64,000 bases of DNA from a phage. This document shows, in pieces, positions 5,465 through 23,041 of the stretch; positions within the stretch are counted from its first letter, which is position 1; every line of letters begins with the position of its first letter. The notes under the pieces were generated by a model, which saw only the letters and a list, made by a program, of their open reading frames with translations, was not told the origin of the DNA and made no database searches. The stretch is from assembly GCA_028130375.1 (NCBI GenBank), contig GCA_028130375.1_3658.1. One strand, written 5' to 3'. The position numbers were made by a program, and so were the translations under genes.

Positions 5465-5522
5465 TGTTTAACAAAGAGTGGGAGGGGTAGTACAACCGCC
5501 TCCCCTTTAAGGAGAACTGTAT

Positions 5523-8300: not shown

Positions 8301-8349
8301 TGTAAACTATCAACACATGGAAGTGTTGTTGAGCAAAGAGGAGACTTTT

Positions 8350-8667
8350 ATGGTAGTAGAACCAACAAAAACATTTACATCCATGACTATCCCTGTTATT
8401 ATGCAGGTGGAGTGTGTTCAGGTATCTCAAGTGTGGCCAGGCACTAAAATCCCAACAGGGCCTGATTTCTTTCAGGTTGGGAAAGTGTACAATGTCTGGA
8501 AGGCACCAGATTGTCACCCTTTCATTAAAGAGAAGGCACCAAATTGCTACCCTTTCATCAAAGATGACCGTGGAATGCTGTGGTATCTTGGAAATGATTT
8601 GACACTGCACCTTGGGAATGCTATTATTGCAGTATTCAGACTTAACAAGAAGGAGACTGATCAATGA
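8350..8667 (+). CDS. hypothetical protein
   Basis: ORF; internal ATG at 8350 behind AAAGAGGAG chosen over GTG 8260 that overlaps the polymerase. Confidence 0.45.
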   Translation: MVVEPTKTFTSMTIPVIMQVECVQVSQVWPGTKIPTGPDFFQVGKVYNVWKAPDCHPFIKEKAPNCYPFIKDDRGMLWYLGNDLTLHLGNAIIAVFRLNKKETDQ

Positions 8668-8891
8668 CGACTTTGGTTAAAGCTACCTTTGTAGAAGAAA
8701 AGATGACAGACCTGTCATTCTTTAAAGAAGGAAAGACCTACGAGGTTTATTACGATAAAGCTCGTGCAAACAAGATGATTAAAGACGAGGAAGGGATTGC
8801 CTGGTTTATCTCCCATCTGGCAAACGGTGAGTATCATATCTACGGAACCACCCTGCTTGCCAAGTTTGTAGCTGTTGAAGAGGACCTATGA
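8664..8891 (+). CDS. hypothetical protein
   Basis: 75 aa ORF; RBS AAGGAG; ATGA overlap with upstream stop. Confidence 0.5.
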   Translation: MTTLVKATFVEEKMTDLSFFKEGKTYEVYYDKARANKMIKDEEGIAWFISHLANGEYHIYGTTLLAKFVAVEEDL

Positions 8892-9082
8892 AAGTAAAGT
8901 ATCTGGCTGAGGGTATGAGTAGGTATTTCACCCTTGGTGAAGAATATTGGCCCTTTACAAGCAACGGCGATGTCTACGTGAAAGATAATTTCGGCACGCC
9001 GTGGTTTCTGCACCCTAATGGGCTGGGATACTCCATTTACTGCGGTGCAGTGAACAACACAACACTTGCAGAGTTTGTATAG
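8888..9082 (+). CDS. hypothetical protein
   Basis: 64 aa ORF, coupled to upstream gene. Confidence 0.45.
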   Translation: MKVKYLAEGMSRYFTLGEEYWPFTSNGDVYVKDNFGTPWFLHPNGLGYSIYCGAVNNTTLAEFV

Positions 9083-9092
9083 AGGAGGTAGA

Positions 9093-9464
9093 ATGTTAGT
9101 AAAAGGTACCCACACAGTCAAACAACGTATTGAAGTTGAGATTGATGACTGCGAGCTGAAGCATATTTTACGGTCATGCTCCAACGTTTTGCTCCTTAGC
9201 ATTCTTCAGGAGCGAGCAGAGAACGAGTTCTTAAATGCACTGGCAGGCCGTCCTGGTGACTTCTGTGTGCGTAAGCGTGGTGACAACAAGTCATGGCTGT
9301 GGGAAATCGATGCCGACTGGGATTACCACAAAAATGAGGGTATAGATGAGCCTATTCGTGAATTGACAGACAAAGAGGTTCAGATGTACAATGAAGTTTG
9401 TCATTGGGCAACACGCCAACAAATTTACCTCGACCCTGTGTGGTTGATTGAAAATAGTCATTGA
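9093..9464 (+). CDS. hypothetical protein
   Basis: ORF; ATG 9093 behind GAGGAGG chosen over TTG 9066. Confidence 0.5.
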   Translation: MLVKGTHTVKQRIEVEIDDCELKHILRSCSNVLLLSILQERAENEFLNALAGRPGDFCVRKRGDNKSWLWEIDADWDYHKNEGIDEPIRELTDKEVQMYNEVCHWATRQQIYLDPVWLIENSH

Positions 9465-9540
9465 CAAGAAGTAAGATTAGATATAAGATGCTTCACACAA
9501 ACAGAGCGTTGATTGTTTAACACTTAAGGAGACCGCTAAG

Positions 9541-9795
9541 ATGAAAATTACTTTGAAGCCAGAATGCGTTGCAAATGACCGAGCTTTTAAAGATTGCACA
9601 GTCGGTGCAATTTATGAAGCAGAGTTTTGTGAGAACCCTCTGGTAAAAGCCCTTCTGGAAGAAGGGGCCCCTTTATCACAAGAAGAGATCGATGAGCTGG
9701 AAAACTCAGCACAGTGCCTTACCTTTAAAGATGACGAAGGAGACTCTGTCTGGTGCACTGTTAATGAAGTAGTTTTTGTAAAACCTGAACATTAA
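9541..9795 (+). CDS. hypothetical protein (paralogue of 9859-10119)
   Basis: 84 aa; RBS TAAGGAGA; shares ..RAFKDCT..(D/N)GD.V(W/F)CT.. with the next gene. Confidence 0.55.
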   Translation: MKITLKPECVANDRAFKDCTVGAIYEAEFCENPLVKALLEEGAPLSQEEIDELENSAQCLTFKDDEGDSVWCTVNEVVFVKPEH

Positions 9796-9798
9796 TAC

Positions 9799-9827
9799 TT
9801 GACAACAGTGATGGGGCCTAATATAAT
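9799..9827 (+). promoter_or_regulatory. sigma70-like promoter (TTGACA-17-TATAAT)
   Basis: Consensus -35 at 9799-9804 and -10 at 9822-9827 between the two paralogous genes. Confidence 0.55.
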
Positions 9828-9858
9828 GGCCCTATCAAAACGAAAGGGGACCACAGCA

Positions 9859-10119
9859 ATGACCAAACAATATCAACGAATTAAAGCCAAGGTTAAGCCA
9901 GACTATCTGGAGAAGGACTCTGCTTTTCGGGACTGCACAGCCGACAAAGTTTACACAGGGACTGTCCTGTTGAACGATAAACTTGAAGTAGATGTGCTGG
10001 GTAAAGAGGCCGTTATCGAGGATGACAACGGTGACTGTGTTTTCTGCACCACACGGGAGCTAGAAGTCTTAGAATACTTCGGTGAAATCTTCAACTCCTT
10101 AGACGACGAGGAAGCGTGA
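9859..10119 (+). CDS. hypothetical protein (paralogue of 9541-9795)
   Basis: ATG 9859 behind AAAGGGGA and downstream of the promoter; the track start 9799 lies in the -35 box. Confidence 0.5.
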   Translation: MTKQYQRIKAKVKPDYLEKDSAFRDCTADKVYTGTVLLNDKLEVDVLGKEAVIEDDNGDCVFCTTRELEVLEYFGEIFNSLDDEEA

Positions 10120-10508
10120 TGAAAAATATTTGGGATATTGGTATCTTTGAAGCCTCTAAGCTTGACGGTGCTGATGGGGTGATTATGGTGTCTGATGGCA
10201 AGGCAACACTAACTTCAGGAGATATCATCTATGCCTTGGACGAGCTGGCGCTTCTGAAATCTACCGGTAACACTTTAGAGGAGCGTCTTCAAGGCTTCGC
10301 CTTCAAAGAAGGCACAAATACCGCCATGATGTGCACCACACGGACAGTCCAGGTTGGTAACGGTGTCTATATGATCATTGCTGTGTGTCCTAAATTCAGC
10401 AACGTCAACAAAGATGATGCTGACGCTGTCAACGATGTGGTTGTTCTCTTCGTGGGTGACGCTATGGCAGACCTGATGAATGCAGGAGAAGCGGCAAATG
10501 AAGACTGA
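10116..10508 (+). CDS. hypothetical protein
   Basis: 130 aa ORF. Confidence 0.5.
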   Translation: MMKNIWDIGIFEASKLDGADGVIMVSDGKATLTSGDIIYALDELALLKSTGNTLEERLQGFAFKEGTNTAMMCTTRTVQVGNGVYMIIAVCPKFSNVNKDDADAVNDVVVLFVGDAMADLMNAGEAANED

Positions 10509-10800
10509 AAACATTACCCCAGCAGGGTTCTTAAAAGTATACCGTGAACTGCTATATACTACAGAGGACAGTGTTCTAGAGTATCCAGAATATCTTTTGC
10601 TGTATAAGTATCTACAGGAAGCTGGTGAAAATCTGCCAGTTAGTGCAGAAGGCGGTCCGAACTGGGTATACAGCGCATGGAGAAAGGTTGACATTCTCCC
10701 AGATCCAGGTAAAGATATGGTAGTTTGGCAGCTTATCAACAACATCGGGATTCCAATCTTTGATGAAGCTGTTAAAATCTATTTTGAACTTAACGATTAA
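10498..10800 (+). CDS. hypothetical protein
   Basis: ORF; ATG 10498 behind AGGAGAAG, overlaps upstream stop. Confidence 0.45.
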   Translation: MKTENITPAGFLKVYRELLYTTEDSVLEYPEYLLLYKYLQEAGENLPVSAEGGPNWVYSAWRKVDILPDPGKDMVVWQLINNIGIPIFDEAVKIYFELND

Positions 10801-10817
10801 TATCAGGAGACCTTAAG

Positions 10818-11063
10818 ATGACTGAAGTAGTTGCTCGCGCAGGACAGAAAGTACGTTGTGTTGAAGTAGGTTTTGGTGGCAAAGGGTGTCAAAACTTGAC
10901 TCAAGGTAAGGAATACGCTGTTATTTCTGGTGGTGGCGACGAAAGTATCGTGTTCGAGGGTCACATCCTGGATGCTGAAAACTTTGAAATCTTTGACGAC
11001 GATGGGGATCCGATCACCTGCCTGCTGGACGGGAATTGGGGAACTTTTGAAGTGATTGGCTAA
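10818..11063 (+). CDS. hypothetical protein
   Basis: 81 aa, Gly/acidic rich; RBS CAGGAGA. Confidence 0.5.
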   Translation: MTEVVARAGQKVRCVEVGFGGKGCQNLTQGKEYAVISGGGDESIVFEGHILDAENFEIFDDDGDPITCLLDGNWGTFEVIG

Positions 11064-11146
11064 CAAATATCTATTGTAATTTGCAGAAGGGGATGCTAAA
11101 ATAGTGTCTCCTTCTATGTTGTTCAAATAAAATCGGAGATTCCATA

Positions 11147-11512
11147 ATGGAACAAATGAACGATCAAACGTCGGTTGCAATGAACGAGCAAGAACAACCT
11201 CAAGAATTTTTCTTAGGGTTAAGTAAAGATCAAGTGTCTCTTTTGCTAGTGCTTTCTTCTTTCATGGGAAGACTTCAGGAGCTCACACAACAACCGGAGG
11301 CTGAACAATTATTTCAGGCTCTGCGCGAAGAAGAAAAATATCGTCGTTTGGACTATGCCTTAGGTTGGGTAGCTCAACAACGAGATATGCTGATGGCTCT
11401 CTCTGGGACCACAAGTTTTGCAATGGGCCTGTTGGCTCAAGTTCAGGACAAATTAATTCAGGCAGGGTTTGCACACACGGCAAACACTAACGAAGAACAA
11501 GGAGACAAATAA
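11147..11512 (+). CDS. hypothetical protein
   Basis: 121 aa ORF; RBS CGGAGA. Confidence 0.5.
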   Translation: MEQMNDQTSVAMNEQEQPQEFFLGLSKDQVSLLLVLSSFMGRLQELTQQPEAEQLFQALREEEKYRRLDYALGWVAQQRDMLMALSGTTSFAMGLLAQVQDKLIQAGFAHTANTNEEQGDK

Positions 11513-12738
11513 TGAGCGTTATTCAACAATTCGCTAACCCGATGAATCCGCGTGAAACTGTTTTACTGGCTCACGGCATGATTAAACGTGTCAGCATCAA
11601 GCCTATCAAAGGTGCTGATCCTACAACAGGTATTAAAACCACTGTGTGGCAAGGTAAGAAAATTGAATCCAGCCACACCATCTCTTTACTGATTTCTGAA
11701 CTGGATTCCTCTGATAACCTGCTTCAAGGTGGTGAAGAAGTTTGGATCAGTATGGGTGATAAGCTGCTTAAACCTGGTCATCAAGACTCTGTCTCTGTTA
11801 AAATTGATGACAAGTGGGAAACCGTAACGCCGGGATGGATCGTAAATATCCCTTTGAAGGCAAACGAGCATAACGGTAAGACCTATTACAAAGGCTCACT
11901 AGCTAAGATGGTCAAGCTGGGTGCAGGAGAGGCTCCAGCAGCGACCCAGCAGCAAAAACAGCAACAAGGTGCACAATCACAAGGCCAGAAGCAGAAACCT
12001 CAGCAGAATGCCAATCAGGACGTTTTACGCATCTATGGCGATGTGACTCAGATTGTTGGCAACGTGGTTACTGTTAATGACCACAAGATTGGCGAAGGTG
12101 CCATGGTTGTCACTGATGAGCAGCTTAAAGACCTGGTGGTAGGTGGTCGTGTTGCAGCCATTGTTGACAAAGACACCGGAAACATTATCAGTGGTTTCAA
12201 AGCCTATCCACCTAAGGCAGAGAACGGCACCCAAGGCTCTGGTGGCAAGCGTAAATCCTCTTACGACCCTATTGGTGTGGAGACGGGACATAGCATCAAT
12301 GCGTTGCAAATCATCCTAGATCGCGGGTTTAAGGTGGACGACCCACTAAGCGTGGCTAAAACACTGCACGTAGTCACCGTTGAGCTTAAGAAAGAGTATG
12401 CTCAAGCCACCAACCGAACTGAGGATGAAGTAGGTGCCAGTGTCGGTAATGCGGTGTTGAACGCTTGTCGCCGTATTGACAAGAAAACGAAAGTTGATGA
12501 TTTTGCAGCGGCAATTACTGCAGAAGCAAAAGATGTCTTGACTAATCTGGCTGAGCCGTTGTACGATTGGATCAAGAACGGTGCTGGGTCAACTGACCAT
12601 CAAGAACCTCAGGCTGCCAAACAGGAAGCAGCTCCACAGCAAAACACTGTAGACGCTCCTCCTGTAAATGATGAGGAAGATGACCCAATGGATCAGAATC
12701 CAGCACAGTACGCCTTTGATGATGACATCCCTTTTTAA
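11512..12738 (+). CDS. putative ssDNA-binding protein with E. coli SSB-like acidic C-terminal tip
   Basis: 408 aa; Gln-rich linker; C-terminus ..AFDDDIPF matches the host SSB tail DDDIPF; sits in the replication module; RBS AAGGAGA. Confidence 0.55.
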   Translation: MSVIQQFANPMNPRETVLLAHGMIKRVSIKPIKGADPTTGIKTTVWQGKKIESSHTISLLISELDSSDNLLQGGEEVWISMGDKLLKPGHQDSVSVKIDDKWETVTPGWIVNIPLKANEHNGKTYYKGSLAKMVKLGAGEAPAATQQQKQQQGAQSQGQKQKPQQNANQDVLRIYGDVTQIVGNVVTVNDHKIGEGAMVVTDEQLKDLVVGGRVAAIVDKDTGNIISGFKAYPPKAENGTQGSGGKRKSSYDPIGVETGHSINALQIILDRGFKVDDPLSVAKTLHVVTVELKKEYAQATNRTEDEVGASVGNAVLNACRRIDKKTKVDDFAAAITAEAKDVLTNLAEPLYDWIKNGAGSTDHQEPQAAKQEAAPQQNTVDAPPVNDEEDDPMDQNPAQYAFDDDIPF

Positions 12739-12753
12739 CAATTAGTTAACATA

Positions 12754-12781
12754 GCCCTGCCCGAAAGGGTGGGGCATTTTT
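12754..12781 (+). terminator. intrinsic terminator, second copy of the GNRA-loop hairpin
   Basis: GCCCTGCCC-GAAA-GGGTGGGGC then ATTTTTG, just after the SSB-like gene. Confidence 0.6.
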
Positions 12782-12800
12782 GTATAATGAGATCTGAAAA

Positions 12801-13217
12801 ATGACATTAGAAGATATCATTGTTAAACCTGAGAACTATGACCAATACAATCTGTCAACTCAATCTGTAGACCTCGGATGCGCCACAGTCAGTGCATGGC
12901 TGGTTAACGGAAAAGAGCTGGATAAATGCTTAGAAGCTCACATGTCTATTAACAAGTTTCTGGATGAAAATACTCACTGGCTTGAAGGTGCAGGCGTATA
13001 TGCTTCATGGTTGGAGAGTATGGGATTCGACTACCAATCTGAAGAGGGGTGGTGGAGCTATTTAGCTATCTGCCCAGAGACGCTGCAATGCTTCATGAAA
13101 TATTCTGAAGATTTGGAGTACCGGGCGGTGGTTGATAGTGCTATTGCCCGTTATAGCCGTAAACCTTTTTCCCACGACATTAAAACTGTGGAAGAATTTG
13201 TTGAAGTTTTCTGTTGA
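12801..13217 (+). CDS. hypothetical protein
   Basis: 138 aa ORF. Confidence 0.5.
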   Translation: MTLEDIIVKPENYDQYNLSTQSVDLGCATVSAWLVNGKELDKCLEAHMSINKFLDENTHWLEGAGVYASWLESMGFDYQSEEGWWSYLAICPETLQCFMKYSEDLEYRAVVDSAIARYSRKPFSHDIKTVEEFVEVFC

Positions 13218-13313
13218 CACAAGTTGAAAGGTGTGCAATTATAACTTCATAGAACGGGAGGACGTGATGAACGAAGAAAACTGGGATGTATAACTAACAG
13301 GAGGCCACTGCCC

Positions 13314-13511
13314 ATGATTTATCGAATCCGTGTAAGAGAAGATGCACCAGGCTGTTACTTTGACTGGCGTGGGTGGTGGTTTCTCCACCCGATGGATGGA
13401 CTCACAGATAGAATGCTGGATGCTGCCCTTTATACAGATACCGACATAGAATATAATCTCTATCTGAAGGACGGTATAGATAACGGTCTATTTGAAGCAA
13501 TTCCTGTGTAA
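13314..13511 (+). CDS. hypothetical protein
   Basis: 65 aa; RBS ACAGGAGG. Confidence 0.45.
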   Translation: MIYRIRVREDAPGCYFDWRGWWFLHPMDGLTDRMLDAALYTDTDIEYNLYLKDGIDNGLFEAIPV

Positions 13512-13579
13512 GAGACTGTGATAGCCATGTTTTATGATCTTCCTGTAGCACCACCACCTGTTGAACCCGGAGAACTAAG

Positions 13580-14005
13580 ATGACCTATGAAATGCCAAAA
13601 CTGATTCGTGACGATGCCCAAAACGCCCACACCTTTATCATGGGCAAACGCATGGATATTATTTGTCATAAAGATTTCTGGGAAGGGAGTTACTTCACAG
13701 AGTATTTTGGTAAACTGGACAATGGTCTGCTGATCCAGCTCTACACCGATGCGGAAAACAACATTCACTGGGAGTTCGAAACTGAAGATATCCATAAACT
13801 TTTCACCTTCCTCGGTATTAAGGTTGAGGCCAAGTTTGAAGAAGGTGAGTGCGACGATTGTGGATTCTATGAGGTAACAGATTTCTATCTCCCGAGTGGT
13901 GAGAACCTTTACTATGAAAGCCACTTCGGTAACTCCAATATGCCACAGTGCTGGACTGAGTTTTTTGAAATTGCGGAAGAGGAGCTGGCATACCGTGATT
14001 ATTGA
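13580..14005 (+). CDS. hypothetical protein
   Basis: 141 aa ORF; RBS CGGAGAA. Confidence 0.5.
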   Translation: MTYEMPKLIRDDAQNAHTFIMGKRMDIICHKDFWEGSYFTEYFGKLDNGLLIQLYTDAENNIHWEFETEDIHKLFTFLGIKVEAKFEEGECDDCGFYEVTDFYLPSGENLYYESHFGNSNMPQCWTEFFEIAEEELAYRDY

Positions 14006-14453
14006 TACTGTAGAGGGGGATTTAATCTCCCTTTTTAAGAGCGGTGCTGGTCACCTGATCCACGGTTGCAACTGCTTCCACACAATGGGCAAGGGGATAG
14101 CAAAACAGATCGCCCGTGAGTTCCCTCAAGCACTGGCAGCTGACAAAGAGACCAGACATGGTTGCCTAAGTAAACTGGGCGCGTTCTCAAGATGGGAGCA
14201 CTTATCTCCGATAGGTATTGTCTACGGAATAAATCTGTATACTCAGTTCTACCCAGGGCCTAATGCTGAATATTTCTCAATCCTGAAAGGCTTTGAGCGA
14301 GTCAATGAGGTATTCGAGGGATCGACTTTACCATTCTACATCCCTAAGATCGGGTGCGGCATAGGCGGTTTGAAGTGGGAACACGTAGAGGACGTTATTA
14401 ACCTTGCCACTTTCGACATAGATATTGTCGTGGTGGAGTACAAAAAGTGTTGA
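13995..14453 (+). CDS. macro-domain (ADP-ribose binding/processing) protein
   Basis: ..GDLISLFKSGAGHLIHGCNCFHTMGKGIAKQIAREFP.. and ..IPKIGCGIGGLKWE.. fit the macro-domain Gly-rich motifs; start uncertain (GTG 13995 used; alternatives GTG 13896, ATG 13914). Confidence 0.55.
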   Translation: MIIDTVEGDLISLFKSGAGHLIHGCNCFHTMGKGIAKQIAREFPQALAADKETRHGCLSKLGAFSRWEHLSPIGIVYGINLYTQFYPGPNAEYFSILKGFERVNEVFEGSTLPFYIPKIGCGIGGLKWEHVEDVINLATFDIDIVVVEYKKC

Positions 14454-14478
14454 CGACAATCTTCTGAGGTGATATAGT
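14450..14478 (+). promoter_or_regulatory. sigma70-like promoter (TTGACG-17-TATAGT)
   Basis: -35 at 14450-14455, -10 at 14473-14478. Confidence 0.45.
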
Positions 14479-14507
14479 TTCCACAACAACTAAGAGAGGA
14501 GAGCACT

Positions 14508-14678
14508 GTGGAGACTAAAATCTTAATTCTTGCTGTGGTAGATACAACCGAAGGAGCTATATTCGAATCTGCAGGAGGGTATTTCTACCTACCATACGGA
14601 AAAAGAACTTCCGAGCCAAGTAAAGATTCAATCCTCAAAGTGTTCCCGTGTGCTTTCTGGCTGGAGATTTTGGTATAA
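14508..14678 (+). CDS. small hypothetical protein (56 aa, GTG start)
   Basis: Not in the ORF track (<60 aa); strong RBS AGAGGAGAG before GTG at 14508; stop TAA 14676-14678. Confidence 0.3.
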   Translation: METKILILAVVDTTEGAIFESAGGYFYLPYGKRTSEPSKDSILKVFPCAFWLEILV

Positions 14679-14704
14679 GATTGCAGAGGATTTGGGAGAG
14701 AATT

Positions 14705-14899
14705 ATGAGAAACAAGAAAGAACTTTACTCTGGTGAGTGGATCAACGATCAACAGGTGGGAGAGGTAACCTGCTTCCGATGTTTTACCAGGTACAATCTT
14801 AAAACTGCACCAAAAAGTGTTCCAAAGACTGACGGTTATTACATAAAAGAACCTCATTGCCCAAAATGTAAATGCCGATTGTACTGGAGCAATCTGTAA
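14705..14899 (+). CDS. small zinc-ribbon-like protein
   Basis: ATG 14705 behind GGGAGAG; CxxC...CxxC pattern (..CFRCF.., ..CPKCKC..). Confidence 0.45.
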   Translation: MRNKKELYSGEWINDQQVGEVTCFRCFTRYNLKTAPKSVPKTDGYYIKEPHCPKCKCRLYWSNL

Positions 14900-14903
14900 G
14901 AGG

Positions 14904-14931
14904 TTGACATCTGAAAACTGCAGTGTATAAT
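14904..14931 (+). promoter_or_regulatory. sigma70-like promoter (TTGACA-16-TATAAT)
   Basis: -35 at 14904-14909, -10 at 14926-14931. Confidence 0.5.
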
Positions 14932-14962
14932 ATACGCATAAACTAACAGAGAGCGATGTATT

Positions 14963-15154
14963 ATGGTAATTTTTAACCGGGATGGTATCATAGTTAGACA
15001 GCACCCGTTCCTTGAATACTATCAAATTGAGCAATGGTGCTACGGGGATTGCAGTCACTCCTATGGACAAAGTTGGGGGTATCGCACAGTTTTTGAATCA
15101 ACAGATCTTGACAAAGTAAGACAGAAAGTTTTAGAACTTCTTAACAACAAGTGA
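14963..15154 (+). CDS. hypothetical protein
   Basis: 63 aa ORF downstream of promoter. Confidence 0.45.
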   Translation: MVIFNRDGIIVRQHPFLEYYQIEQWCYGDCSHSYGQSWGYRTVFESTDLDKVRQKVLELLNNK

Positions 15155-15164
15155 GTATCGTGCC

Positions 15165-15497
15165 ATGGTAACATTGGAAAGACGTAAAGCTATCGCCGCC
15201 ACACTGGCAGACATCTTTTGGGATTGCAACTTAAAAGATACCCGATATTGTGGCGCATCTGTAGATGTATTATTCCCACGGCCCACCATTGTTGCAATGG
15301 GCAACCTGCTCGATGTGGTATATGGAGCATGGGACAAGGAAGGTGGATTCTATATCTGGCAACCTGACTACGGGACCTGGAAAGAGGTTAGTGGTTCTGC
15401 GGACTTCACTCCTGCAGAGGCTAAAATGGATGGCTGGAAAATCTATGTCGGTAACGACATGGAACTGAAAGGCGAAATTGTTTACTGGTTACCTTAA
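15165..15497 (+). CDS. hypothetical protein
   Basis: 110 aa ORF. Confidence 0.5.
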   Translation: MVTLERRKAIAATLADIFWDCNLKDTRYCGASVDVLFPRPTIVAMGNLLDVVYGAWDKEGGFYIWQPDYGTWKEVSGSADFTPAEAKMDGWKIYVGNDMELKGEIVYWLP

Positions 15498-15517
15498 GAA
15501 AGTGCAGGAGATAAAGT

Positions 15518-15763
15518 ATGAACAAAGGGTGGACATTTGTAGACGGCGTTAAAAACATGCCTCTAGGAAAGTATATTGTAGCCATGGCAGATGAGAATGG
15601 CAAGGTGGATTTCGGAGTTTGCGAGGTTGTTCTTGCAGGATCTGGTGACTATGCTCACAAAACTGGGATAATTAACGGTCATTTCTACTTTGATTACAAC
15701 CCTGTTGTGGCGTATATGGCTATGCCAGAGTTAGAGCTCTCAAAGGAGGGTGCAGATGTTTAA
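15518..15763 (+). CDS. hypothetical protein
   Basis: 81 aa; RBS CAGGAGA. Confidence 0.5.
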   Translation: MNKGWTFVDGVKNMPLGKYIVAMADENGKVDFGVCEVVLAGSGDYAHKTGIINGHFYFDYNPVVAYMAMPELELSKEGADV

Positions 15764-15953
15764 GCTTAAATCTGCATGGAACATCGCTGTGGGGGACGAG
15801 ATCCGTATCCCAGGTGGAAAGACCATTATGAAGATATCTCGTATCGAGTACGAAGGTGATCGTGTATTTCATATCTTTGCAGAGGATGGTCGAGAAATTT
15901 ATATACAGGCAGGCTCTCACATCTATATTCGTAAGAAAGGGGACGACAAATGA
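15756..15953 (+). CDS. hypothetical protein
   Basis: ATG 15756 behind AAGGAGGG; overlaps upstream stop. Confidence 0.45.
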   Translation: MFKLKSAWNIAVGDEIRIPGGKTIMKISRIEYEGDRVFHIFAEDGREIYIQAGSHIYIRKKGDDK

Positions 15954-16279
15954 CAGAGATCATCATTTCAACTGCAGGGTATGTGTTCCTGACAATCATT
16001 GCACTGACCATTCTGGTTGTGGTATATGGAATTGTTATTCTCCCTATTCTTGAGACAATTAGTTTGTGTCGGTGTTGGAGAAAGGCTTACGGTCCACAGC
16101 CGTGGAAGGACTGGCCCCACCTTGTGCACATAGCGTTCTCTTATGCTTATGATCACGCCAGCAGTGCATGCATAACCGGGTATCACGCCCACAACTGGAG
16201 CTGGGAAGGGTTGAGGAAATGGAATGTTACAAAGACCATACCTCTCCGCATGTACAAACCTAAAAACAAAGACAGCTGA
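15950..16279 (+). CDS. putative membrane protein
   Basis: 109 aa; N-terminal hydrophobic segment ..ISTAGYVFLTIIALTILVVVYGIVILPIL.. Confidence 0.5.
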   Translation: MTEIIISTAGYVFLTIIALTILVVVYGIVILPILETISLCRCWRKAYGPQPWKDWPHLVHIAFSYAYDHASSACITGYHAHNWSWEGLRKWNVTKTIPLRMYKPKNKDS

Positions 16280-16324
16280 TACTTGAAAATTCCTGGCATA
16301 TCAAGTGTAAGGAGGATTTCTAAA

Positions 16325-16537
16325 ATGGATTTCCTCCTTTTGATATTTCACCGGGTTAGATATTTTAAAATTCTTAGAAAATCAGAAAATGGATCGAAAA
16401 CTAAAATGGATTTTTCAGAGCAGGCGCGACAAACCGAATCACTCATCCTATCGTTTGCACCATATTCCAGTCCACCATTACAGATTTCCCGCACATGCTT
16501 ACATCCTTCTACTGGAACTTCCTCCACTTACCCTTGA
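16325..16537 (+). CDS. doubtful small ORF in a repeat-rich region
   Basis: ATG behind AAGGAGG but sequence is low-complexity and overlaps AAATGGATTT repeats. Confidence 0.2.
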   Translation: MDFLLLIFHRVRYFKILRKSENGSKTKMDFSEQARQTESLILSFAPYSSPPLQISRTCLHPSTGTSSTYP

Positions 16538-16591
16538 CCTTTTATGGTAATAATCTAACCACTATCTTGAGGTTGCGGTACAGCTTTCCGG

Positions 16592-16678
16592 GTACTCGAT
16601 CTGTTTTTCGTTTCAAAGATTGAATTTTCTTAAAATTTTTCTCGATAAATTTCTCAGTACTCGATCTGTTTTTCGTTT
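16592..16678. repeat. direct repeats (2 x 22 bp GTACTCGATCTGTTTTTCGTTT) in an AT-rich non-coding island
   Basis: Identical 22-mers at 16592-16613 and 16657-16678, with nearby CGAAATCGATTTTTCG palindrome and AAATGGATTT repeats. Confidence 0.6.
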
Positions 16679-16885
16679 TCTGAATCGGATTTTCTGGAAA
16701 TCGTTCCGGAGCTCGACCTGAAATTTTTGGGAACGAAATCGATTTTTCGTTTTCAGAAATGGATTTTTAAAATTTCTATATGGGAATATTTTATGGGATA
16801 CTGTTTTATAGGAAATTGTTACGGAGGGTAATTAGCACGCTAATTAAATTTATTAAATGCGAGGAGTTCTCATTTAGAATTTTGA

Positions 16886-17215
16886 ATGATAATCATTCTC
16901 GTTTGCAGAATAACGGGCACCCCCGGTGATTGTCTCCCGGCCCCTGTTGCCCCGGCTTGTTATTATAGTATCACACAGGACAAAGAAGGCAAGGATTTTT
17001 TGCATAAATTTTTAAATGATAATGATAACCGTTCTCATTTTATGCAGCGCCCATCCCCGGTGGTTATCTCCCCCGTCACCGGTGCCTGCCGTCCTTTCGA
17101 TAGGTATATTGTGCCACCTGGCGGGGCCGCTGTCAACACCTTTCAAAAAAAATTATAACCAGGTGCGCCCACTGCCAGGACCTGGCGGGGCCAGTCTGGC
17201 AGGGGAGAGTGAAAG
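16886..17215. repeat. GC-rich repeated element family (two ~80-bp imperfect copies plus three ACCTGGCGGGG boxes)
   Basis: TTkAATGATAAT..CCCCGGTG(A/G)TT(G/A)TCTCCC.. at 16886-16965 and 17016-17100; ACCTGGCGGGG at about 17116, 17180, 17399; the 17-mer CCCGGTGATTGTCTCCC recurs inverted at 26051-26067. Confidence 0.5.
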
Positions 17216-17451
17216 CTTGCAAACCTGGTAGGGCTATGCTATAGGGTAGGCAACAACTGGAGAGGAGGTACAAAAATGAAAGGTAATATGATCCCCTGGA
17301 AAATGTAGCGACTAATGACGCTGAGGCTATCGCCATGGTTGAAAAGGCTATGGCGGGAGCGTTGGAACATAAAGAAGAGTACGAAAAAATGGTGGTTAAC
17401 CTGGCGGGGGCGGCAGGTGGATTCTATCATAAAAATAATTTAAAATAGTCG

Positions 17452-17479
17452 TTGACAACAAGGTTAATCATGGTATTAT
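17452..17479 (+). promoter_or_regulatory. sigma70-like promoter (TTGACA-16-TATTAT)
   Basis: -35 at 17452-17457, -10 at 17474-17479; first of a long series of promoters preceding the small genes. Confidence 0.5.
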
Positions 17480-17529
17480 TACCCTACAAGGTGAACAACA
17501 CCGCACTAACCAGTAAAGAGGATAAATTT

Positions 17530-17727
17530 ATGAACGCATACGGGATCAAAGTACGTCGCAACACTCGCCAGGTGGTCACCAATCAAGTGATTTGCCGGGT
17601 GGATGTAACCATCAACAACGGGCAAGGCCTTTATAAATTTCGTCGCGGTCATAGCTATACCCTGCAACAGCTTAATCGTTGCGCCCTGACAAAAGGTCAG
17701 ATCAACCACTGGTTTAATAAAAAATAA
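17530..17727 (+). CDS. hypothetical small basic protein
   Basis: ATG 17530 behind AAAGAGGA and downstream of promoter; track start 17452 is the -35 box. Confidence 0.45.
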   Translation: MNAYGIKVRRNTRQVVTNQVICRVDVTINNGQGLYKFRRGHSYTLQQLNRCALTKGQINHWFNKK

Positions 17728-17730
17728 GTA

Positions 17731-17759
17731 TTGACATATAGTCCGACACCAAATACACT
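17731..17759 (+). promoter_or_regulatory. sigma70-like promoter (TTGACA-17-TACACT)
   Basis: -35 at 17731-17736, -10 at 17754-17759. Confidence 0.5.
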
Positions 17760-17791
17760 AAAAGCACAAAAGACACTAAGAGGATAAAATC

Positions 17792-18190
17792 ATGAAAACC
17801 ACTACCTTTAATTTTGATAATGCAGACTTTTCTTTTTCTGATGTCAAGAACTGCCGCCGTGATCGTGGATTTTACAAGGCTTATAATCTGGTGGGCCTGG
17901 ACGATGACAATAATTTGCACGAAGTAGCTGAGATCCGGTATTATGCCGCCGCCAGCGGGAACACTTACTACTGCGTTTTTTGGATACACGACAACAAGAA
18001 CAATAAGTACGGCTATACTGGCGGCAAGGCGAGCGGTCACGGTTATGATAAAGCTAACGCAGCACTTGAGAGCGCATTAAATGCTATGGGGATCACTGCC
18101 GACGGCTGGATCTACGAAGAAGAGTTTTTGTCGGCACTTGCTGACCACCTAGGCTATAAAAAGCACATTGTAACATGCGCCCACGAATAA
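17792..18190 (+). CDS. hypothetical protein
   Basis: 132 aa; RBS AAGAGGA. Confidence 0.55.
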   Translation: MKTTTFNFDNADFSFSDVKNCRRDRGFYKAYNLVGLDDDNNLHEVAEIRYYAAASGNTYYCVFWIHDNKNNKYGYTGGKASGHGYDKANAALESALNAMGITADGWIYEEEFLSALADHLGYKKHIVTCAHE

Positions 18191-18196
18191 AAATCA

Positions 18197-18225
18197 TTGA
18201 CACGCTGCAAAATTTAAGTAAACTA
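18197..18225 (+). promoter_or_regulatory. sigma70-like promoter (TTGACA-16-TAAACT)
   Basis: -35 at 18197-18202; followed by 5' hairpin GGCGGGAA-TGT-TTCCCGCC at 18235-18253, then RBS and ATG 18273. Confidence 0.5.
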
Positions 18226-18272
18226 GACACAAAAGGCGGGAATGTTTCCCGCCAGCACAAAGGAAAAAGATC

Positions 18273-18677
18273 ATGAATAAGAACGTACGCCGCATCATGA
18301 ACGAGTTGGCAAACGATGAAAAAATTATTGACATGCATTTGATCAACATTTGCCGCCGTTGTGTAACATATAACAACCGCGCCGCAAAAGCGCGTGAGAT
18401 GAACGCAAAAGGCACCTTAAAGCCATTCCAGGTGGTGGTAAAGGCCATTAAAGATGTAACTAATACGGCAAACCAGGTACAGGGGAACACCAACGAGAGT
18501 ACCAATATTGATCCAGCTTACATCATGAAACGGATCCGGACCTGCAAGAACAAAGAGCAAGTGTATAATGTCATAGACTGGTTGGATTCTATGGGCGATG
18601 TGGTTTACAATAGGTTTTCTGCAGCTATCGAGATCCAGCTTGACAGGTTGGACGGTAAAGTACTGAAAACTTACTAA
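18273..18677 (+). CDS. hypothetical protein
   Basis: 134 aa; RBS AAAGGAAAAAG. Confidence 0.55.
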   Translation: MNKNVRRIMNELANDEKIIDMHLINICRRCVTYNNRAAKAREMNAKGTLKPFQVVVKAIKDVTNTANQVQGNTNESTNIDPAYIMKRIRTCKNKEQVYNVIDWLDSMGDVVYNRFSAAIEIQLDRLDGKVLKTY

Positions 18678-18679
18678 GT

Positions 18680-18725
18680 TTATTTTTAGATGGCCTTGAC
18701 TTCAGGGCCATCAATAAAGTAAACT
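18680..18725 (+). repeat. repeated 46-bp promoter/stem-loop element, copy 1
   Basis: TTATTTTTAGATGGCCTTGACTTCAGGGCCATCAATAAAGTAAACT: inverted repeat GATGGCC/GGCCATC encloses a -35-like TTGACT, then -10-like TAAACT. Confidence 0.6.
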
Positions 18726-18757
18726 AATCTCAACTAAGCGAAAAAGGGGGCTTTAAG

Positions 18758-18877
18758 ATGAGCACTACACGCCAATACACAAAGGTAACTATTATCGTTT
18801 GCGTTGTCGGTTACATCCTGGCGCAAATGTTAATGAGTAGCGCTAACAGTTTTGCAAAATTTTTCTTAAATTTTTAA
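18758..18877 (+). CDS. small hydrophobic peptide (39 aa)
   Basis: Not in the track; RBS AAAAAGGGGG; MSTTRQYTKVTIIVCVVGYILAQMLMSSANSFAKFFLNF. Confidence 0.3.
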   Translation: MSTTRQYTKVTIIVCVVGYILAQMLMSSANSFAKFFLNF

Positions 18878-18905
18878 TTGACAAACTGACTTAGATCGAT
18901 ATACT
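18878..18905 (+). promoter_or_regulatory. sigma70-like promoter (TTGACA-16-TATACT)
   Basis: -35 at 18878-18883, -10 at 18900-18905; followed by 5' hairpin GGGAA-AAC-TTCCC at 18919-18931. Confidence 0.5.
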
Positions 18906-18956
18906 TAAACACGTAAACGGGAAAACTTCCCAGAGCACACAAAAGGAGAAAACACC

Positions 18957-19298
18957 ATGACTACTATGACCGCCGCAGAAAAAGCTATGCAGATCGCCGC
19001 GCTGAAAAAACAGATCGCAGACCTTGAGAACAAGATCGATAACTTTGAAATCGACGAGGACAAGTACGACGAAAACTATGATGAATGGTTAGACGAGATC
19101 TACGGCGAAATTATGATCGGAAACATTTCTTTTCTTCCGTCGCGTATCCTCAAGGAGCTAGATCCTATCGCTTACCGCTGCGGATTTGGCGACTACATCG
19201 ACAGCCTGGATATTGAGGACGATGAAGAATACCAGGAACTACAGACAGAGTTAGAAGAAGCAAAAGAAGAGCTTGCGGAGCTGGAAGAAAACGAGTAA
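18957..19298 (+). CDS. hypothetical acidic coiled-coil protein
   Basis: 113 aa; Glu/Asp-rich helical repeats; RBS AAAGGAGAA. Confidence 0.55.
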   Translation: MTTMTAAEKAMQIAALKKQIADLENKIDNFEIDEDKYDENYDEWLDEIYGEIMIGNISFLPSRILKELDPIAYRCGFGDYIDSLDIEDDEEYQELQTELEEAKEELAELEENE

Positions 19299-19299
19299 G

Positions 19300-19345
19300 A
19301 TTATTTTTAGATGGCCTTGACTTCAGGGCCATCAATAAAGTAAAC
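19300..19345 (+). repeat. repeated 46-bp promoter/stem-loop element, copy 2
   Basis: Identical to copy 1. Confidence 0.6.
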
Positions 19346-19387
19346 TTTATACTGTTAACACTGAACTAATTCAGAGGAGTTAAAACC

Positions 19388-19633
19388 ATGGCAGCACTAA
19401 TCACCAAATATTATGCCCCTACCAACACCAAAAGCGCCCGTATCATGGTAAAAGGCTTCGGACGTAAAAAGGTTTACACCTGGGATTATGCCTTAGACAC
19501 GGAAGACAACTACACCAACGCGATGACCGATTTTATTAATGATCTGAACACGCGGATCTTGACAAATTATAAAATTACCGATATTGCCTATATAGGGGAA
19601 GGCGGGATCTGTTTTGTCGGTATCGTCAAATAA
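19388..19633 (+). CDS. hypothetical protein
   Basis: 81 aa; RBS AGAGGAG. Confidence 0.5.
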   Translation: MAALITKYYAPTNTKSARIMVKGFGRKKVYTWDYALDTEDNYTNAMTDFINDLNTRILTNYKITDIAYIGEGGICFVGIVK

Positions 19634-19709
19634 GCTGTTTTTTCGGTGGTCCTGGTAGCAGGGCCATCTATAAAGATAGTTTATCAACACAATGAAAGGA
19701 GAAAGTAAC

Positions 19710-20063
19710 ATGATCAGCGGGGCAAGTTTTATTATTGGCGCTATTGCTACGGCTTTAATTGTAAACAAGATCCAATCCAAAAACGAAAAAGAGAGCAACG
19801 CGCTTACAGAATACCCATTTTGGGTATTCAACGACAATGAAGACTACATTATCAAGTACAAGGATGAGAAAGGGGACCAGGTAACACCGAGACCGATCCC
19901 AGCTTACAAGATGCAAGAAACATTATACCGCTTAAAGGCTGGCGGCGCAAAAATCGTAGACTTTTGGGGATATGATTGCAAGGATCAGGAGACTATAAAA
20001 CGTCGTATCCGGGCGATTCAGGCAAATATTGAGATCAGTAAAGGGGGCGTTTATGAAAATTAA
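19710..20063 (+). CDS. hypothetical protein with N-terminal transmembrane segment
   Basis: ATG 19710 behind AAAGGAGAAAG; ..ASFIIGAIATALIV.. Confidence 0.5.
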   Translation: MISGASFIIGAIATALIVNKIQSKNEKESNALTEYPFWVFNDNEDYIIKYKDEKGDQVTPRPIPAYKMQETLYRLKAGGAKIVDFWGYDCKDQETIKRRIRAIQANIEISKGGVYEN

Positions 20064-20250
20064 TTTCGAAAAAATTGTAAAGCGCCCCCACGATTCCGAA
20101 GAGCTGCCGGAACGCCGCCAGCGTAACAATAAACTGAATAAACCGAAAAGGTTCGGGAAGATCTGGAGAAATCACTATGATCGCAAATTACCGAGCCTGC
20201 TTTTGGAACGTGAACGACAGGCGGAACGATACCGCCACAAAGACAAATAG
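20053..20250 (+). CDS. small basic protein
   Basis: ATG 20053 behind AAAGGGGG; Arg/Lys rich. Confidence 0.35.
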   Translation: MKINFEKIVKRPHDSEELPERRQRNNKLNKPKRFGKIWRNHYDRKLPSLLLERERQAERYRHKDK

Positions 20251-20431
20251 CAACCAACGCCCCGCCATTGTGAGGGGCTTTTTATTTCTATCCCGCCGAT
20301 AGCGCCCCTGGTTGGCCCTACAAGCGCCATAAAGGCCCCTACCTATGCAATCCCCTTTCTTAACCTGAAAACAGCGTCTAGGGCCGTTTTATGGCGTTAA
20401 AAATATTATTGACAGTGATTCTATTTAAAGC

Positions 20432-20460
20432 TTGACACCTTGGGATAGTCCGGATATACT
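20432..20460 (+). promoter_or_regulatory. sigma70-like promoter (TTGACA-17-TATACT), with a second TTGACA at 20409
   Basis: -35 at 20432-20437, -10 at 20455-20460. Confidence 0.5.
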
Positions 20461-20495
20461 AACCACATCAAAGCAAGAAGGAAGGAGTAAACGCC

Positions 20496-20756
20496 ATGCG
20501 TAAATTAAAAAATTTTGATAAAGTCGATGTTGTCCTGAATAATTTTTACTACTGCAATAATAAAGCCGTTTGGTGGCGTGATAGTTCCACCGATAAAGTT
20601 AAAGCGCGCTTTCTCCAAGGGCACTGGCAAGGCCGTCCAGTGATTAAAATCCTGGGGCAATTGGTAGCGTTTAAAAATTGCCGCCGTGTTGATGACGTTG
20701 AAGAGATTCTAAACATTTTACGCCACAATAATTTAAAAAATAGTGTTGACAAGTAA
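20496..20756 (+). CDS. hypothetical protein
   Basis: 86 aa; RBS GAAGGAAGGAG. Confidence 0.5.
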   Translation: MRKLKNFDKVDVVLNNFYYCNNKAVWWRDSSTDKVKARFLQGHWQGRPVIKILGQLVAFKNCRRVDDVEEILNILRHNNLKNSVDK

Positions 20757-20773
20757 GTCTCAATAAGTATACT
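20746..20773 (+). promoter_or_regulatory. sigma70-like promoter (TTGACA-16-TATACT)
   Basis: -35 at 20746-20751; followed by 5' hairpin GGCGGGAA-GTT-TTCCCGCC at 20784-20802. Confidence 0.5.
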
Positions 20774-20830
20774 TAAACACACAGGCGGGAAGTTTTCCCG
20801 CCACTAACAAAGAAAATAGGAGAAAATATC

Positions 20831-21454: not shown

Positions 21455-21462
21455 ATAAAGTG

Positions 21463-21490
21463 TTGCAATAACCTAAAAACCTGCTATATT
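21463..21490 (+). promoter_or_regulatory. sigma70-like promoter (TTGCAA-16-TATATT)
   Basis: Followed by 5' hairpin GGGGCAA..TTGCCCC at 21500-21518. Confidence 0.45.
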
Positions 21491-21542
21491 AGAACTCAAG
21501 GGGCAAGAAGTTTGCCCCACACAAAACAAAGAGGAAAACATC

Positions 21543-21923: not shown

Positions 21924-21933
21924 TCAGGTAACA

Positions 21934-21959
21934 GGCGGCATATTTGCCGCCTTATTGTT
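21934..21959 (+). terminator. intrinsic terminator (GGCGGCA-TATT-TGCCGCC, T-rich tail)
   Basis: 7-bp stem then TTATTGTT. Confidence 0.5.
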
Positions 21960-21987
21960 AAACAGAACTGCAAAAGAGGTACATAGA

Positions 21988-22698: not shown

Positions 22699-22702
22699 GA
22701 AC

Positions 22703-22731
22703 GGCCCCCGATCATGGGGGCCTATCTTTTT
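22703..22731 (+). terminator. intrinsic terminator (GGCCCCC-GATCAT-GGGGGCC, TATCTTTTT)
   Basis: 7-bp GC stem followed by T-tract. Confidence 0.6.
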
Positions 22732-23038: not shown

Positions 23039-23041
23039 AAT

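What the first reader, a model, noticed from the sequence alone, without database searches (positions are those of the whole stretch)
13995..14453. Macro-domain protein in the replication arm: candidate counter-defence against ADP-ribosylation
The Gly-rich motifs ..HGCNCFHTMGKGIAKQI.. and ..IPKIGCGIGGL.. fit a macro domain. Macro domains bind or hydrolyse ADP-ribose adducts, and DarG antitoxins use one to reverse DarT ADP-ribosylation of DNA. A phage macro domain could therefore undo host ADP-ribosylating defences or NAD-derived signals.
Basis: partly seen in the sequence, partly recalled or inferred. Interest (0 to 1): 0.55.

Follow-up and report, generated by a model that had tools for sequence, protein, structure and literature searches.

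The report
Phage macrodomain that likely undoes DarT2
This gene in an rV5-like E. coli phage encodes a stand-alone macrodomain enzyme of the same family as phage T4 Tk.4 (AdfM), which protects T4 from the DarTG2 defence, so it is a correct but already-known kind of anti-defence gene.

Summary

The window is a Vequintavirus (rV5-like E. coli phage). Several GenBank relatives already annotate this gene as "macro domain protein" or "phosphatase".

The counter-defence reading is supported by homology.
- The protein is 40-44% identical over its full length to T4-type Tk.4. A 2025 preprint showed Tk.4 is required for T4 resistance to DarTG2 and named it AdfM.
- It is 70% identical to the protein at the tk.4 locus of Krischvirus KFS-EC.
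- It has no DarT-binding C-terminal domain, and none of ten flanking ORFs matches any PADLOC model, so no darT neighbour. It is an orphan eraser, not a DarG antitoxin.

One refinement: DarG's catalytic lysine is an invariant glutamine here (NLYTQ motif), as in T4 Tk.4. Streptomyces SCO6735 has the same glutamine, needs it for activity, and cleaves thymidine-linked ADP-ribose from DNA. PhiKZ AdfM is the lysine type.

Activity in this phage is untested. Verdict: new member of a known kind, low to moderate interest.

The parts
13995..14453 (+). Coding sequence of the 152-aa stand-alone macrodomain protein (GTG start, TGA stop); candidate AdfM orthologue
13980..13984 (+). Shine-Dalgarno-like AGGAG, 10 nt before the GTG start
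   Evidence: Read directly from the sequence
14061..14111 (+). First macro motif HGCNCFHTMGKGIAKQI. It includes H23, invariant N26 (codon 14070-14072, equivalent to DarG N22 and SCO6735 N27) and the Gly-rich loop (invariant G34)
   Evidence: invariant G24, N26, G34, A36; alignment to SCO6735, DarG, TARG1; residue roles from PMC9411070 and PMC13309987
14232..14246 (+). NLYTQ motif. Invariant Q84 (codon 14244-14246) occupies the position of the catalytic Lys of DarG (K80) and TARG1 (K84) and of the essential Gln85 of SCO6735
   Evidence: N80 and Q84 are invariant in 57 homologues. The profile-to-PDB alignment places NlYTQ on NMIGQ of SCO6735 and BT1257, and on FPTK of DarG and ITK of TARG1. The Gln85 equivalence and its essentiality come from PMC9411070
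14340..14372 (+). Second macro motif IPKIGCGIGGL (phosphate-binding loop). G120 and G122 correspond to SCO6735 G126 and G128
   Evidence: (P117, I119, G120 invariant; G122, G125 nearly invariant)
13580..14005 (+). Upstream 141-aa acidic ORF of unknown function (PHROG 8157). Its stop overlaps the macro start by 11 nt, so the two may be translationally coupled. It is found only in Vequintavirus-like phages
   Evidence: No Pfam or PADLOC hit. The AF2 model is poor (pLDDT 66.9) and the fold search found nothing significant
12754..12775 (+). Terminator-like hairpin (9 bp stem, 7 GC pairs, T-run) that may mark the upstream end of the transcription unit holding the macro gene
   Evidence: consensus scan only
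13214..13242 (+). Sigma-70-like promoter (TTGACA-17-AATTAT with extended TG) upstream of the ORFs 13314..13511, 13580..14005 and the macro gene
   Evidence: consensus scan only; promoter-like sites are only modestly above shuffles, 18 against 11.5 +/- 3.5
14450..14478 (+). Sigma-70-like promoter (TTGACG-17-TATAGT, TG) overlapping the macro stop codon, positioned to drive the next small genes
   Evidence: consensus scan only

Best explanation
The gene encodes an orphan, single-domain ADP-ribosyl glycohydrolase of the ALC1-like (TARG1 / DarG / SCO6735) macrodomain class. It is the Vequintavirus counterpart of T4 Tk.4, named AdfM. The proposed mechanism runs as follows. The gene is probably expressed from host-type promoters in the non-structural gene arm (inferred). 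The protein binds the ADP-ribose that the host toxin DarT2 attaches to thymidine in single-stranded phage DNA. It then hydrolyses the ribose-thymine bond, so replication forks are no longer blocked and DarTG2 abortive defence fails. Catalysis is probably not DarG-like, because the lysine is replaced by an invariant glutamine (Q84) held by N26. SCO6735 has the same arrangement; there the Gln positions the distal ribose and an activated water is proposed to start the reaction. Shown here: fold, class, conserved active-site residues, purifying selection, close homology to T4 Tk.4, and absence of a DarT-binding domain or a darT neighbour. Taken from the literature: the T4 Tk.4 knock-out phenotype and SCO6735 biochemistry. 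Inferred: that this protein has the same substrate and phenotype.

For: Homology to a genetically validated anti-DarTG2 factor: 40% identity, E 9e-42, full length to T4 Tk.4. 44% to ime09 Tk.4. 70% to the protein at the vs-tk.4-tk locus of Krischvirus KFS-EC. The PHROG hit pattern is identical to Tk.4. A clean tk.4 knock-out sensitises T4 to DarTG2, and the authors named the gene adfM (10.1101/2025.11.20.689424). A second, Lys-type phage macrodomain, PhiKZ gp104 AdfM, removes DarT2 ADP-ribose from DNA (PMC13309987).

Active site: N26, Q84, G120 are invariant and H23, G122 nearly invariant in 57 homologues down to 31% identity. They align to SCO6735 N27, Q85, G126, H24, G128. SCO6735 cleaves dT-ADPr on DNA, and Q85A or N27S abolish or nearly abolish activity (PMC9411070).

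Functional gene: dN/dS 0.09-0.12.
Against: No experiment exists for this protein or any Vequintavirus orthologue. The Bas54 (Vequintavirinae) HIDEN-SEQ screens described in the preprint did not report this gene or a DarTG2 challenge. Identity to T4 Tk.4 is only 40%, and macrodomain substrate range is hard to read from sequence (PMC9503650). SCO6735 and TARG1 also de-modify proteins. Two SCO6735 lysines that help to hold DNA are not family features: K34 corresponds to K33 here but is Ala or Ser in most homologues, and K89 falls in an insertion the phage family lacks. Bacterial relatives sit in housekeeping contexts (downstream of rpoC or ileS) rather than next to DarT. The T4 evidence is a preprint and shows no biochemistry for Tk.4.
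Confidence: 0.7

Rival explanations
1. Small-molecule ADP-ribose housekeeping. The macrodomain would hydrolyse ADP-ribose-1''-phosphate, ADPr>P or O-acyl-ADP-ribose made by the phage's own sirtuin-centred RNA-repair module (Sir2 + MazG pyrophosphatase + T4-like RNA ligase), acting as a Poa1p-like 'phosphatase'.
Against: The Sir2 cluster is more than 50 kb away on the opposite strand, and Iyer et al. note it is not coupled to a macro gene. To my knowledge T4 has no such sirtuin, yet it keeps Tk.4, and the only phenotype the preprint reports for tk.4 is against DarTG2. The invariant Gln matches SCO6735 and BT1257. From my memory of the Poa1p sequence, which I did not verify here, Poa1p has Ser at that position.
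Confidence: 0.12
2. Eraser of protein- or RNA-linked ADP-ribose. It would counter other host ADP-ribosyltransferase defences (for example mRNA- or protein-modifying ARTs), or tune ADP-ribosylation during infection, rather than act on DNA.
For: TARG1 and SCO6735, both close structural and sequence relatives, remove ADP-ribose from proteins, and Q85 is required for that activity too. Macrodomains are promiscuous across substrates.
Against: No ART was identified in the neighbourhood. The nearest experimentally characterised phage homologue gives a DarTG2-specific phenotype. No data link this clade to protein or RNA targets.
Confidence: 0.1
3. Degrader or sponge of NAD-derived immune signals (Thoeris-type cyclic or histidine-ADPR messengers).
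For: Macrodomains bind ADPR-derived signals; the Thoeris II ThsA macrodomain binds His-ADPR. Iyer et al. favour soluble targets for phage macrodomains.
Confidence: 0.05
4. Antitoxin half of a phage-borne toxin-antitoxin or self-modification pair with the overlapping upstream ORF 13580..14005.
For: The two ORFs overlap by 11 nt, and the upstream protein has no known function.
Against: The upstream ORF has no Pfam, PADLOC or DarT match and no ART-like fold hit, although its model is poor. The pairing is confined to Vequintavirus-like phages, whereas the macro gene occurs with different neighbours in T4-family phages.
Confidence: 0.03

Closest known systems
T4 Tk.4 = AdfM (anti-DarT factor macrodomain), HIDEN-SEQ preprint 10.1101/2025.11.20.689424
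   Same: Single-domain protein of about 150 aa. 40% identity over the full length, E 9e-42. Same PHROG hit pattern. Same HGCNCFHTMG, NLYTQ and IG[CA]GIG motifs, including Gln at the DarG-Lys position. The Krischvirus protein at the tk.4 locus is 70% identical to the query.
   Different: Different phage family and different neighbours (vs/tk.3 in T4; PHROG 8157/15268 here). The anti-DarTG2 phenotype is shown for T4 only.
Streptomyces coelicolor SCO6735 (PDB 5e3b), a thymidine-ADPr DNA hydrolase (PMC9411070)
   Same: Stand-alone ALC1-like macrodomain with Gln instead of the catalytic Lys. H24, N27, Q85, G126, G128 correspond to H23, N26, Q84, G120, G122. Profile E 1e-15. No adjacent DarT.
   Different: Only about 24% identity. 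The SCO6735 insertion carrying K89 is missing. K34 is not conserved in the phage family. It is cellular, not viral.
DarG2 antitoxin macrodomain (M. tuberculosis 5m3i, T. aquaticus 5m31/5m3e)
   Different: Catalytic Lys80 is replaced by Gln84. No C-terminal DarT-binding domain (152 aa against about 340). NCBIfam score 47.8 against a cut-off of 250. No darT neighbour.
PhiKZ gp104 AdfM and other chimallivirus AdfM (PMC13309987)
   Same: Orphan phage macrodomain, best PHROG hit 335. Biochemically removes DarT2 ADP-ribose from DNA.
   Different: Only 20% identity, E 1e-4. Lys type (FPTK, N23/K78), so DarG-like rather than SCO6735-like. Imported into the phage nucleus.
Human TARG1 (C6orf130), yeast Poa1p and Bacteroides BT1257
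   Different: TARG1 uses a K84/D125 dyad on protein Glu-ADPr, and both residues are absent here. Poa1p is an ADPr-1''-phosphatase. BT1257 has no assigned function in its PDB entry.

Membership tests
Macro domain (Pfam PF01661) | Sequence score above the curated gathering threshold | tested here: met
   28.4 bits against 22, E 1.7e-6
Macro domain (Pfam PF01661) | Three-layer alpha/beta macro fold with an ADP-ribose cleft formed by Gly-rich loops | tested here: met
ALC1-like class (TARG1 / DarG / SCO6735 / Poa1p) | Closest structural and sequence relatives belong to this class rather than to the MacroD or viral Nsp3 type | tested here: met
DarG antitoxin (NCBIfam NF048014; DarTG2) | Full-length equivalog score | tested here: not met
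   47.8 bits against a cut-off of 250; only model positions 3-141 of 338 match
DarG antitoxin (NCBIfam NF048014; DarTG2) | C-terminal DarT-binding domain | tested here: not met
   The protein is 152 aa, macrodomain only
DarG antitoxin (NCBIfam NF048014; DarTG2) | Catalytic lysine (Taq DarG K80) | tested here: not met
   Gln84 aligns to the Lys of FPTK and is invariant in the family
DarG antitoxin (NCBIfam NF048014; DarTG2) | Adjacent darT toxin gene | tested here: not met
   None of ten flanking ORFs has a PADLOC or Pfam hit
AdfM, T4 Tk.4 type | Full-length homology to T4 Tk.4, stand-alone macrodomain encoded by a lytic phage | tested here: met
   40% identity, E 9e-42, residues 1-150; same PHROGs; 70% identity to the Krischvirus tk.4-locus protein
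AdfM, T4 Tk.4 type | Required for plating on DarTG2 hosts, or neutralises DarT2 | not testable with these tools
   Shown only for T4. I found no data for Vequintavirinae
SCO6735-type (Gln) thymidine-ADPr hydrolase | Gln at the DarG-K80 / TARG1-K84 position, positioned by the conserved Asn | tested here: met
   Q84 and N26 are invariant. They align to Q85 and N27 (chain numbering is offset by 20). Their roles come from PMC9411070
SCO6735-type (Gln) thymidine-ADPr hydrolase | Phosphate-binding-loop glycines G126 and G128 | tested here: met
   G120 is invariant and G122 nearly invariant
SCO6735-type (Gln) thymidine-ADPr hydrolase | DNA-positioning lysines K34 and K89 | tested here: inconclusive
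   K33 is present in this protein but is Ala or Ser in most homologues, including T4 Tk.4. K89 lies in an insertion that the phage family lacks
SCO6735-type (Gln) thymidine-ADPr hydrolase | Hydrolysis of dT-ADPr on ssDNA | not testable with these tools
   Needs a biochemical assay
Poa1p-like ADP-ribose-1''-phosphate phosphatase | Appr-1''-p phosphatase activity | not testable with these tools

The most novel reading that the evidence does not exclude
The T4 Tk.4 / Vequintavirus clade of phage macrodomains is a lysine-less, glutamine-type lineage. It occurs in about 2,800 of 50,697 phage records. It may work by the SCO6735-like water-mediated mechanism and may be a broader eraser than DarG, removing ADP-ribose from DNA as well as from proteins, RNA or soluble ADPr derivatives. 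In rV5-like phages it could also serve the phage's own Sir2/RNA-ligase repair module. One small enzyme would then defeat several ADP-ribosylating or NAD-consuming defences.
Probability: 0.15. Interest if true: 0.5.

Novelty: new member of a known kind. Interest (0 to 1): 0.25.

Why it matters
If the prediction holds, rV5-like phages, a group often considered for therapy against pathogenic E. coli, carry built-in resistance to DarTG2. That bears on predicting host range from phage and host genomes. The glutamine-for-lysine active site also shows that phages hold at least two mechanistic types of DNA de-ADP-ribosylase: T4/rV5 type and PhiKZ type. This is relevant to anyone designing DarG or DarT inhibitors, or using these enzymes as tools. 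It does not open a new question, because the family's role was reported for T4 in 2025 and for chimalliviruses in 2026.

Tried and rejected
- **DarG membership.** Rejected: score far below the equivalog cut-off, no C-terminal domain, no Lys, no darT neighbour.
- **Upstream overlapping ORF 13580..14005 as a partner toxin or ART.** It has only 4 homologue clusters. The AF2 model is poor (pLDDT 66.9; the other four models 39-49). Foldseek against PDB gave nothing at E <= 0.001 and TM <= 0.25. This was inconclusive and I treat it as a dead end.
- **Pfam, PHROG and PADLOC on ten neighbours.** Only unknown-function PHROGs matched.
- **The search for related loci with the 57-sequence alignment.** It failed for lack of a conserved stretch. 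It worked with a closer 11-sequence alignment.
- **Bacterial relatives.** They were inspected for DarT. Ten neighbours from seven of the 17 loci were scanned, and those sit in rpoC / ileS-lspA / NADAR contexts with no DarT.
- **tRNA scan of the window.** None found.
- **Literature.** The search term 'AdfM' was swamped by unrelated hits. One search call failed on term length. I found no paper testing Vequintavirinae on DarTG2.
- **MAFFT alignment with PhiKZ gp104.** It shifts the TK/TQ motif by two columns. I relied instead on the HMMER profile alignments and the structural equivalence stated in PMC9411070.
- **dN/dS against Krischvirus KFS-EC.** Not computable because synonymous sites are saturated.

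Full report
**1. What is in the sequence**

The frame containing the finding is open from 13896 to 14453.
- An AGGAG lies 10 nt upstream, and the start overlaps the stop of the preceding ORF (13580..14005) by 11 nt.
- RefSeq annotates the orthologue in phage APECc02 with the same 459-nt length.
- Homologues from other phages start at the same MII/MIV N-terminus.

The 152-aa product contains both quoted motifs exactly.

**2. Which genome this is**

The 2.7 kb around the gene is 95-97% identical to many Vequintavirus (rV5-like) E. coli phages, including nomo, naswa, APECc02 and the BASEL phages DrSchubert, CarlMeissner and EmilHeitz. 119 records match at 90% identity or more. Several of those records already call the gene 'macro domain protein', 'putative macro domain protein' or 'phosphatase'.

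By correspondence with the APECc02 annotation, the gene lies on the + strand about 5.7 kb downstream of the DNA polymerase gene, in a run of small genes that only match unknown-function PHROGs. A terminator-like hairpin lies at 12754-12775. Sigma-70-like promoters lie at 13214, 14450 and 14904, the last a perfect consensus. This fits a host-polymerase-transcribed gene arm, but these are consensus matches only.

**3. It is a real macrodomain**

- Pfam Macro scores 28.4 bits against a gathering score of 22.
- PHROG 335 matches at E 2.5e-60.
- An AlphaFold2 model built on 57 homologues has pLDDT 97.2.
- dN/dS against two Vequintavirus orthologues is 0.10 and 0.087.

The protein therefore belongs to the ALC1-like (TARG1 / DarG / SCO6735 / Poa1p) class.

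**4. Active site**

In 57 homologues down to 31% identity, the invariant residues are G24, N26, G34, A36, N80, Q84, P117, I119 and G120. H23, G122 and G125 are nearly invariant.

HMMER alignments place the family's NLYTQ on three known motifs:
- NMIGQ of SCO6735 and BT1257;
- FPTK of M. tuberculosis DarG;
- ITK of TARG1.

Q84 therefore occupies the position of the catalytic lysine of DarG (K80) and TARG1 (K84).

Hlousek-Kasun et al. (PMC9411070) state that SCO6735 lacks those residues and has Gln85 at the equivalent position. They also report that Q85A abolishes activity, that N27S nearly does, that G128E reduces it, and that the enzyme cleaves thymidine-linked ADP-ribose from DNA and protects against DarT.

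After correcting for the 20-residue tag in chain 5e3b, H24, N27, Q85, G126 and G128 map to H23, N26, Q84, G120 and G122 here. The two DNA-positioning lysines of SCO6735 are not family features. K34 corresponds to K33 in this protein but is Ala or Ser in most homologues. K89 sits in an insertion that the phage family lacks.

**5. Relation to known phage proteins**

A tblastn search finds the family in 2,799 of 50,697 phage records, including T4-like, Felix O1-like, Vi1-like and many others.

| Comparison | Identity | Evidence |
|---|---|---|
| T4 Tk.4 (NP_049723, annotated 'phosphatase; contains A1pp phosphatase motif') | 40% over the full length, E 9e-42 | |
| Tk.4 of T4-like phage ime09 | 44% | |
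| Protein at the vs / tk.4 / tk locus of Krischvirus KFS-EC | 70% | |
| PhiKZ gp104 | 20%, E 1e-4 | |

All four best-hit PHROG 335. T4 Tk.4, ime09 Tk.4 and the KFS-EC protein keep NLYTQ. PhiKZ gp104 has the DarG-like FPTK (N23/K78). The 70% match to the Krischvirus protein points to gene exchange between the two phage groups.

**6. What the literature says**

- The HIDEN-SEQ preprint (10.1101/2025.11.20.689424) found tk.4 as the single T4 gene depleted on a DarTG2 host. It confirmed that a clean knock-out sensitises T4 to DarTG2, and named the gene adfM.
- Independently, a 2026 Cell Reports paper (PMC13309987) named the chimallivirus macrodomain (PhiKZ gp104) AdfM and showed that it removes DarT2 ADP-ribose from DNA.
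- Iyer et al. 2022 (PMC9503650) had already catalogued macrodomains in 41% of myoviruses, and favoured soluble ADPr substrates for them.
- I found no test of a Vequintavirus macrodomain. The Bas54 screens in the preprint report other genes, and searches combining Vequintavirinae or BASEL with DarTG2 gave nothing further.

**7. Why it is not a DarG**

- The NCBIfam DarG equivalog scores 47.8 bits against a cut-off of 250, and only the macro part matches.
- The protein has no C-terminal DarT-binding domain.
- The catalytic Lys is Gln.
- None of ten flanking ORFs matches any PADLOC model, DarT included.

It works like the eraser half of DarG2 but is an orphan enzyme.

Bacterial relatives (35-43% identity; Ruegeria, Hyphomicrobiaceae and others) lie downstream of rpoC or between ileS and lspA. 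In two Ruegeria genomes they lie directly after a NADAR gene. No DarT was found among the ten neighbours scanned.

**8. Most likely mechanism**

The protein is probably made early in infection. It binds the ADP-ribose that host DarT2 places on thymidines of single-stranded phage DNA and hydrolyses it, which restores replication. Catalysis probably follows the lysine-independent SCO6735 route, with Q84 held by N26.
- Shown here: fold, class, conserved residues, selection and homology.
- From the literature: the T4 knock-out phenotype and SCO6735 biochemistry.
- Inferred: substrate and phenotype for this protein.

Confidence is about 0.7.

**9. Rivals**

- *Processing of soluble ADPr derivatives.* rV5-type phages carry a Sir2 / MazG / RNA-ligase repair cluster, seen in APECc02 just beyond the window (PMC9503650). 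That cluster is far away and not coupled to a macro gene. To my knowledge T4 keeps Tk.4 without such a sirtuin.
- *Erasing protein or RNA ADP-ribosylation.* SCO6735 and TARG1 act on proteins, so this cannot be excluded.
- *Toxin-antitoxin pair with the overlapping upstream ORF.* This is unlikely. That ORF has no family or defence-model match. Its structure model is poor, and the fold search found nothing. The pairing is confined to Vequintavirus-like phages.

**10. Verdict**

The gene is already annotated as a macrodomain in public records, and its family's anti-DarTG2 role has been published for T4 and PhiKZ-like phages. The added value here has two parts:
- the assignment of the Vequintavirus gene to the T4 Tk.4 (AdfM) lineage;
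- the finding that this lineage is the glutamine (SCO6735) type rather than the lysine (DarG / PhiKZ) type.

It is a new member of a known kind, of low to moderate interest.

Noticed in passing
window 11512..12738 (+): This 408-aa protein (PHROG 4477, no Pfam or PDB sequence hit) has a Gln-rich linker and ends in ...AFDDDIPF, the exact C-terminal tip of E. coli SSB. By its FDDDIPF tip and the gene numbering it is probably the orthologue of Bas52_0087, the SSB-like phage protein recently reported as the trigger of the DRT10 reverse-transcriptase defence (bioRxiv 10.64898/2026.04.29.721553). I did not compare the two sequences directly.
   Followed up: partly
L008 (Krischvirus KFS-EC, NC_055757) 4001-4456 compared with window 13995..14453: A T4-family phage carries, at the syntenic tk.4 position between vs and tk, a macrodomain 70% identical to the Vequintavirus one. 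T4's own Tk.4 is only 40% identical. This suggests horizontal exchange of this anti-defence gene between unrelated myovirus groups.
   Followed up: partly
L019 3472-4447 and L020 3532-4456 (Ruegeria genomes): In two Ruegeria chromosomes a NADAR-domain gene (Pfam E 1e-37 and 2e-39) overlaps the start of the Gln-type macrodomain gene. The pair would combine a guanine-ADPr and a thymine-ADPr eraser with no DarT found nearby. Other relatives sit downstream of rpoC or between ileS and lspA.
   Followed up: partly
L004 35774-37301 (APECc02 record 70473-72320), just beyond the window's 3' end: The close relative encodes a nucleotide pyrophosphohydrolase (MazG-like), a Sir2 and an RNA ligase in a row. 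This is the sirtuin-centred RNA-repair neighbourhood that Iyer et al. 2022 describe for phage V5, and a possible source of ADPr derivatives in infected cells.
   Followed up: partly
window 14904..14931 (+): A perfect sigma-70 consensus promoter (TTGACA, 16 nt, TATAAT) lies about 450 nt downstream of the macro gene, in a region with several other strong promoter-like sites.
   Followed up: no
window 5523..8667 (+) compared with L001 4870-8489: In APECc02 the DNA polymerase is annotated in two pieces separated by an HNH endonuclease gene. The window has one 925-aa ORF followed by an overlapping 135-aa ORF, so the mobile-element content of the polymerase gene differs between these close relatives.
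   Followed up: no
window 13580..14005 (+): A highly acidic 141-aa protein with a conserved CDDCG motif is restricted to Vequintavirus-like phages and is possibly translationally coupled to the macro gene. No family, defence-model or fold match was found.
   Followed up: yes
window 1..64000: ARAGORN finds no tRNA genes anywhere in this 64-kb window.
   Followed up: yes
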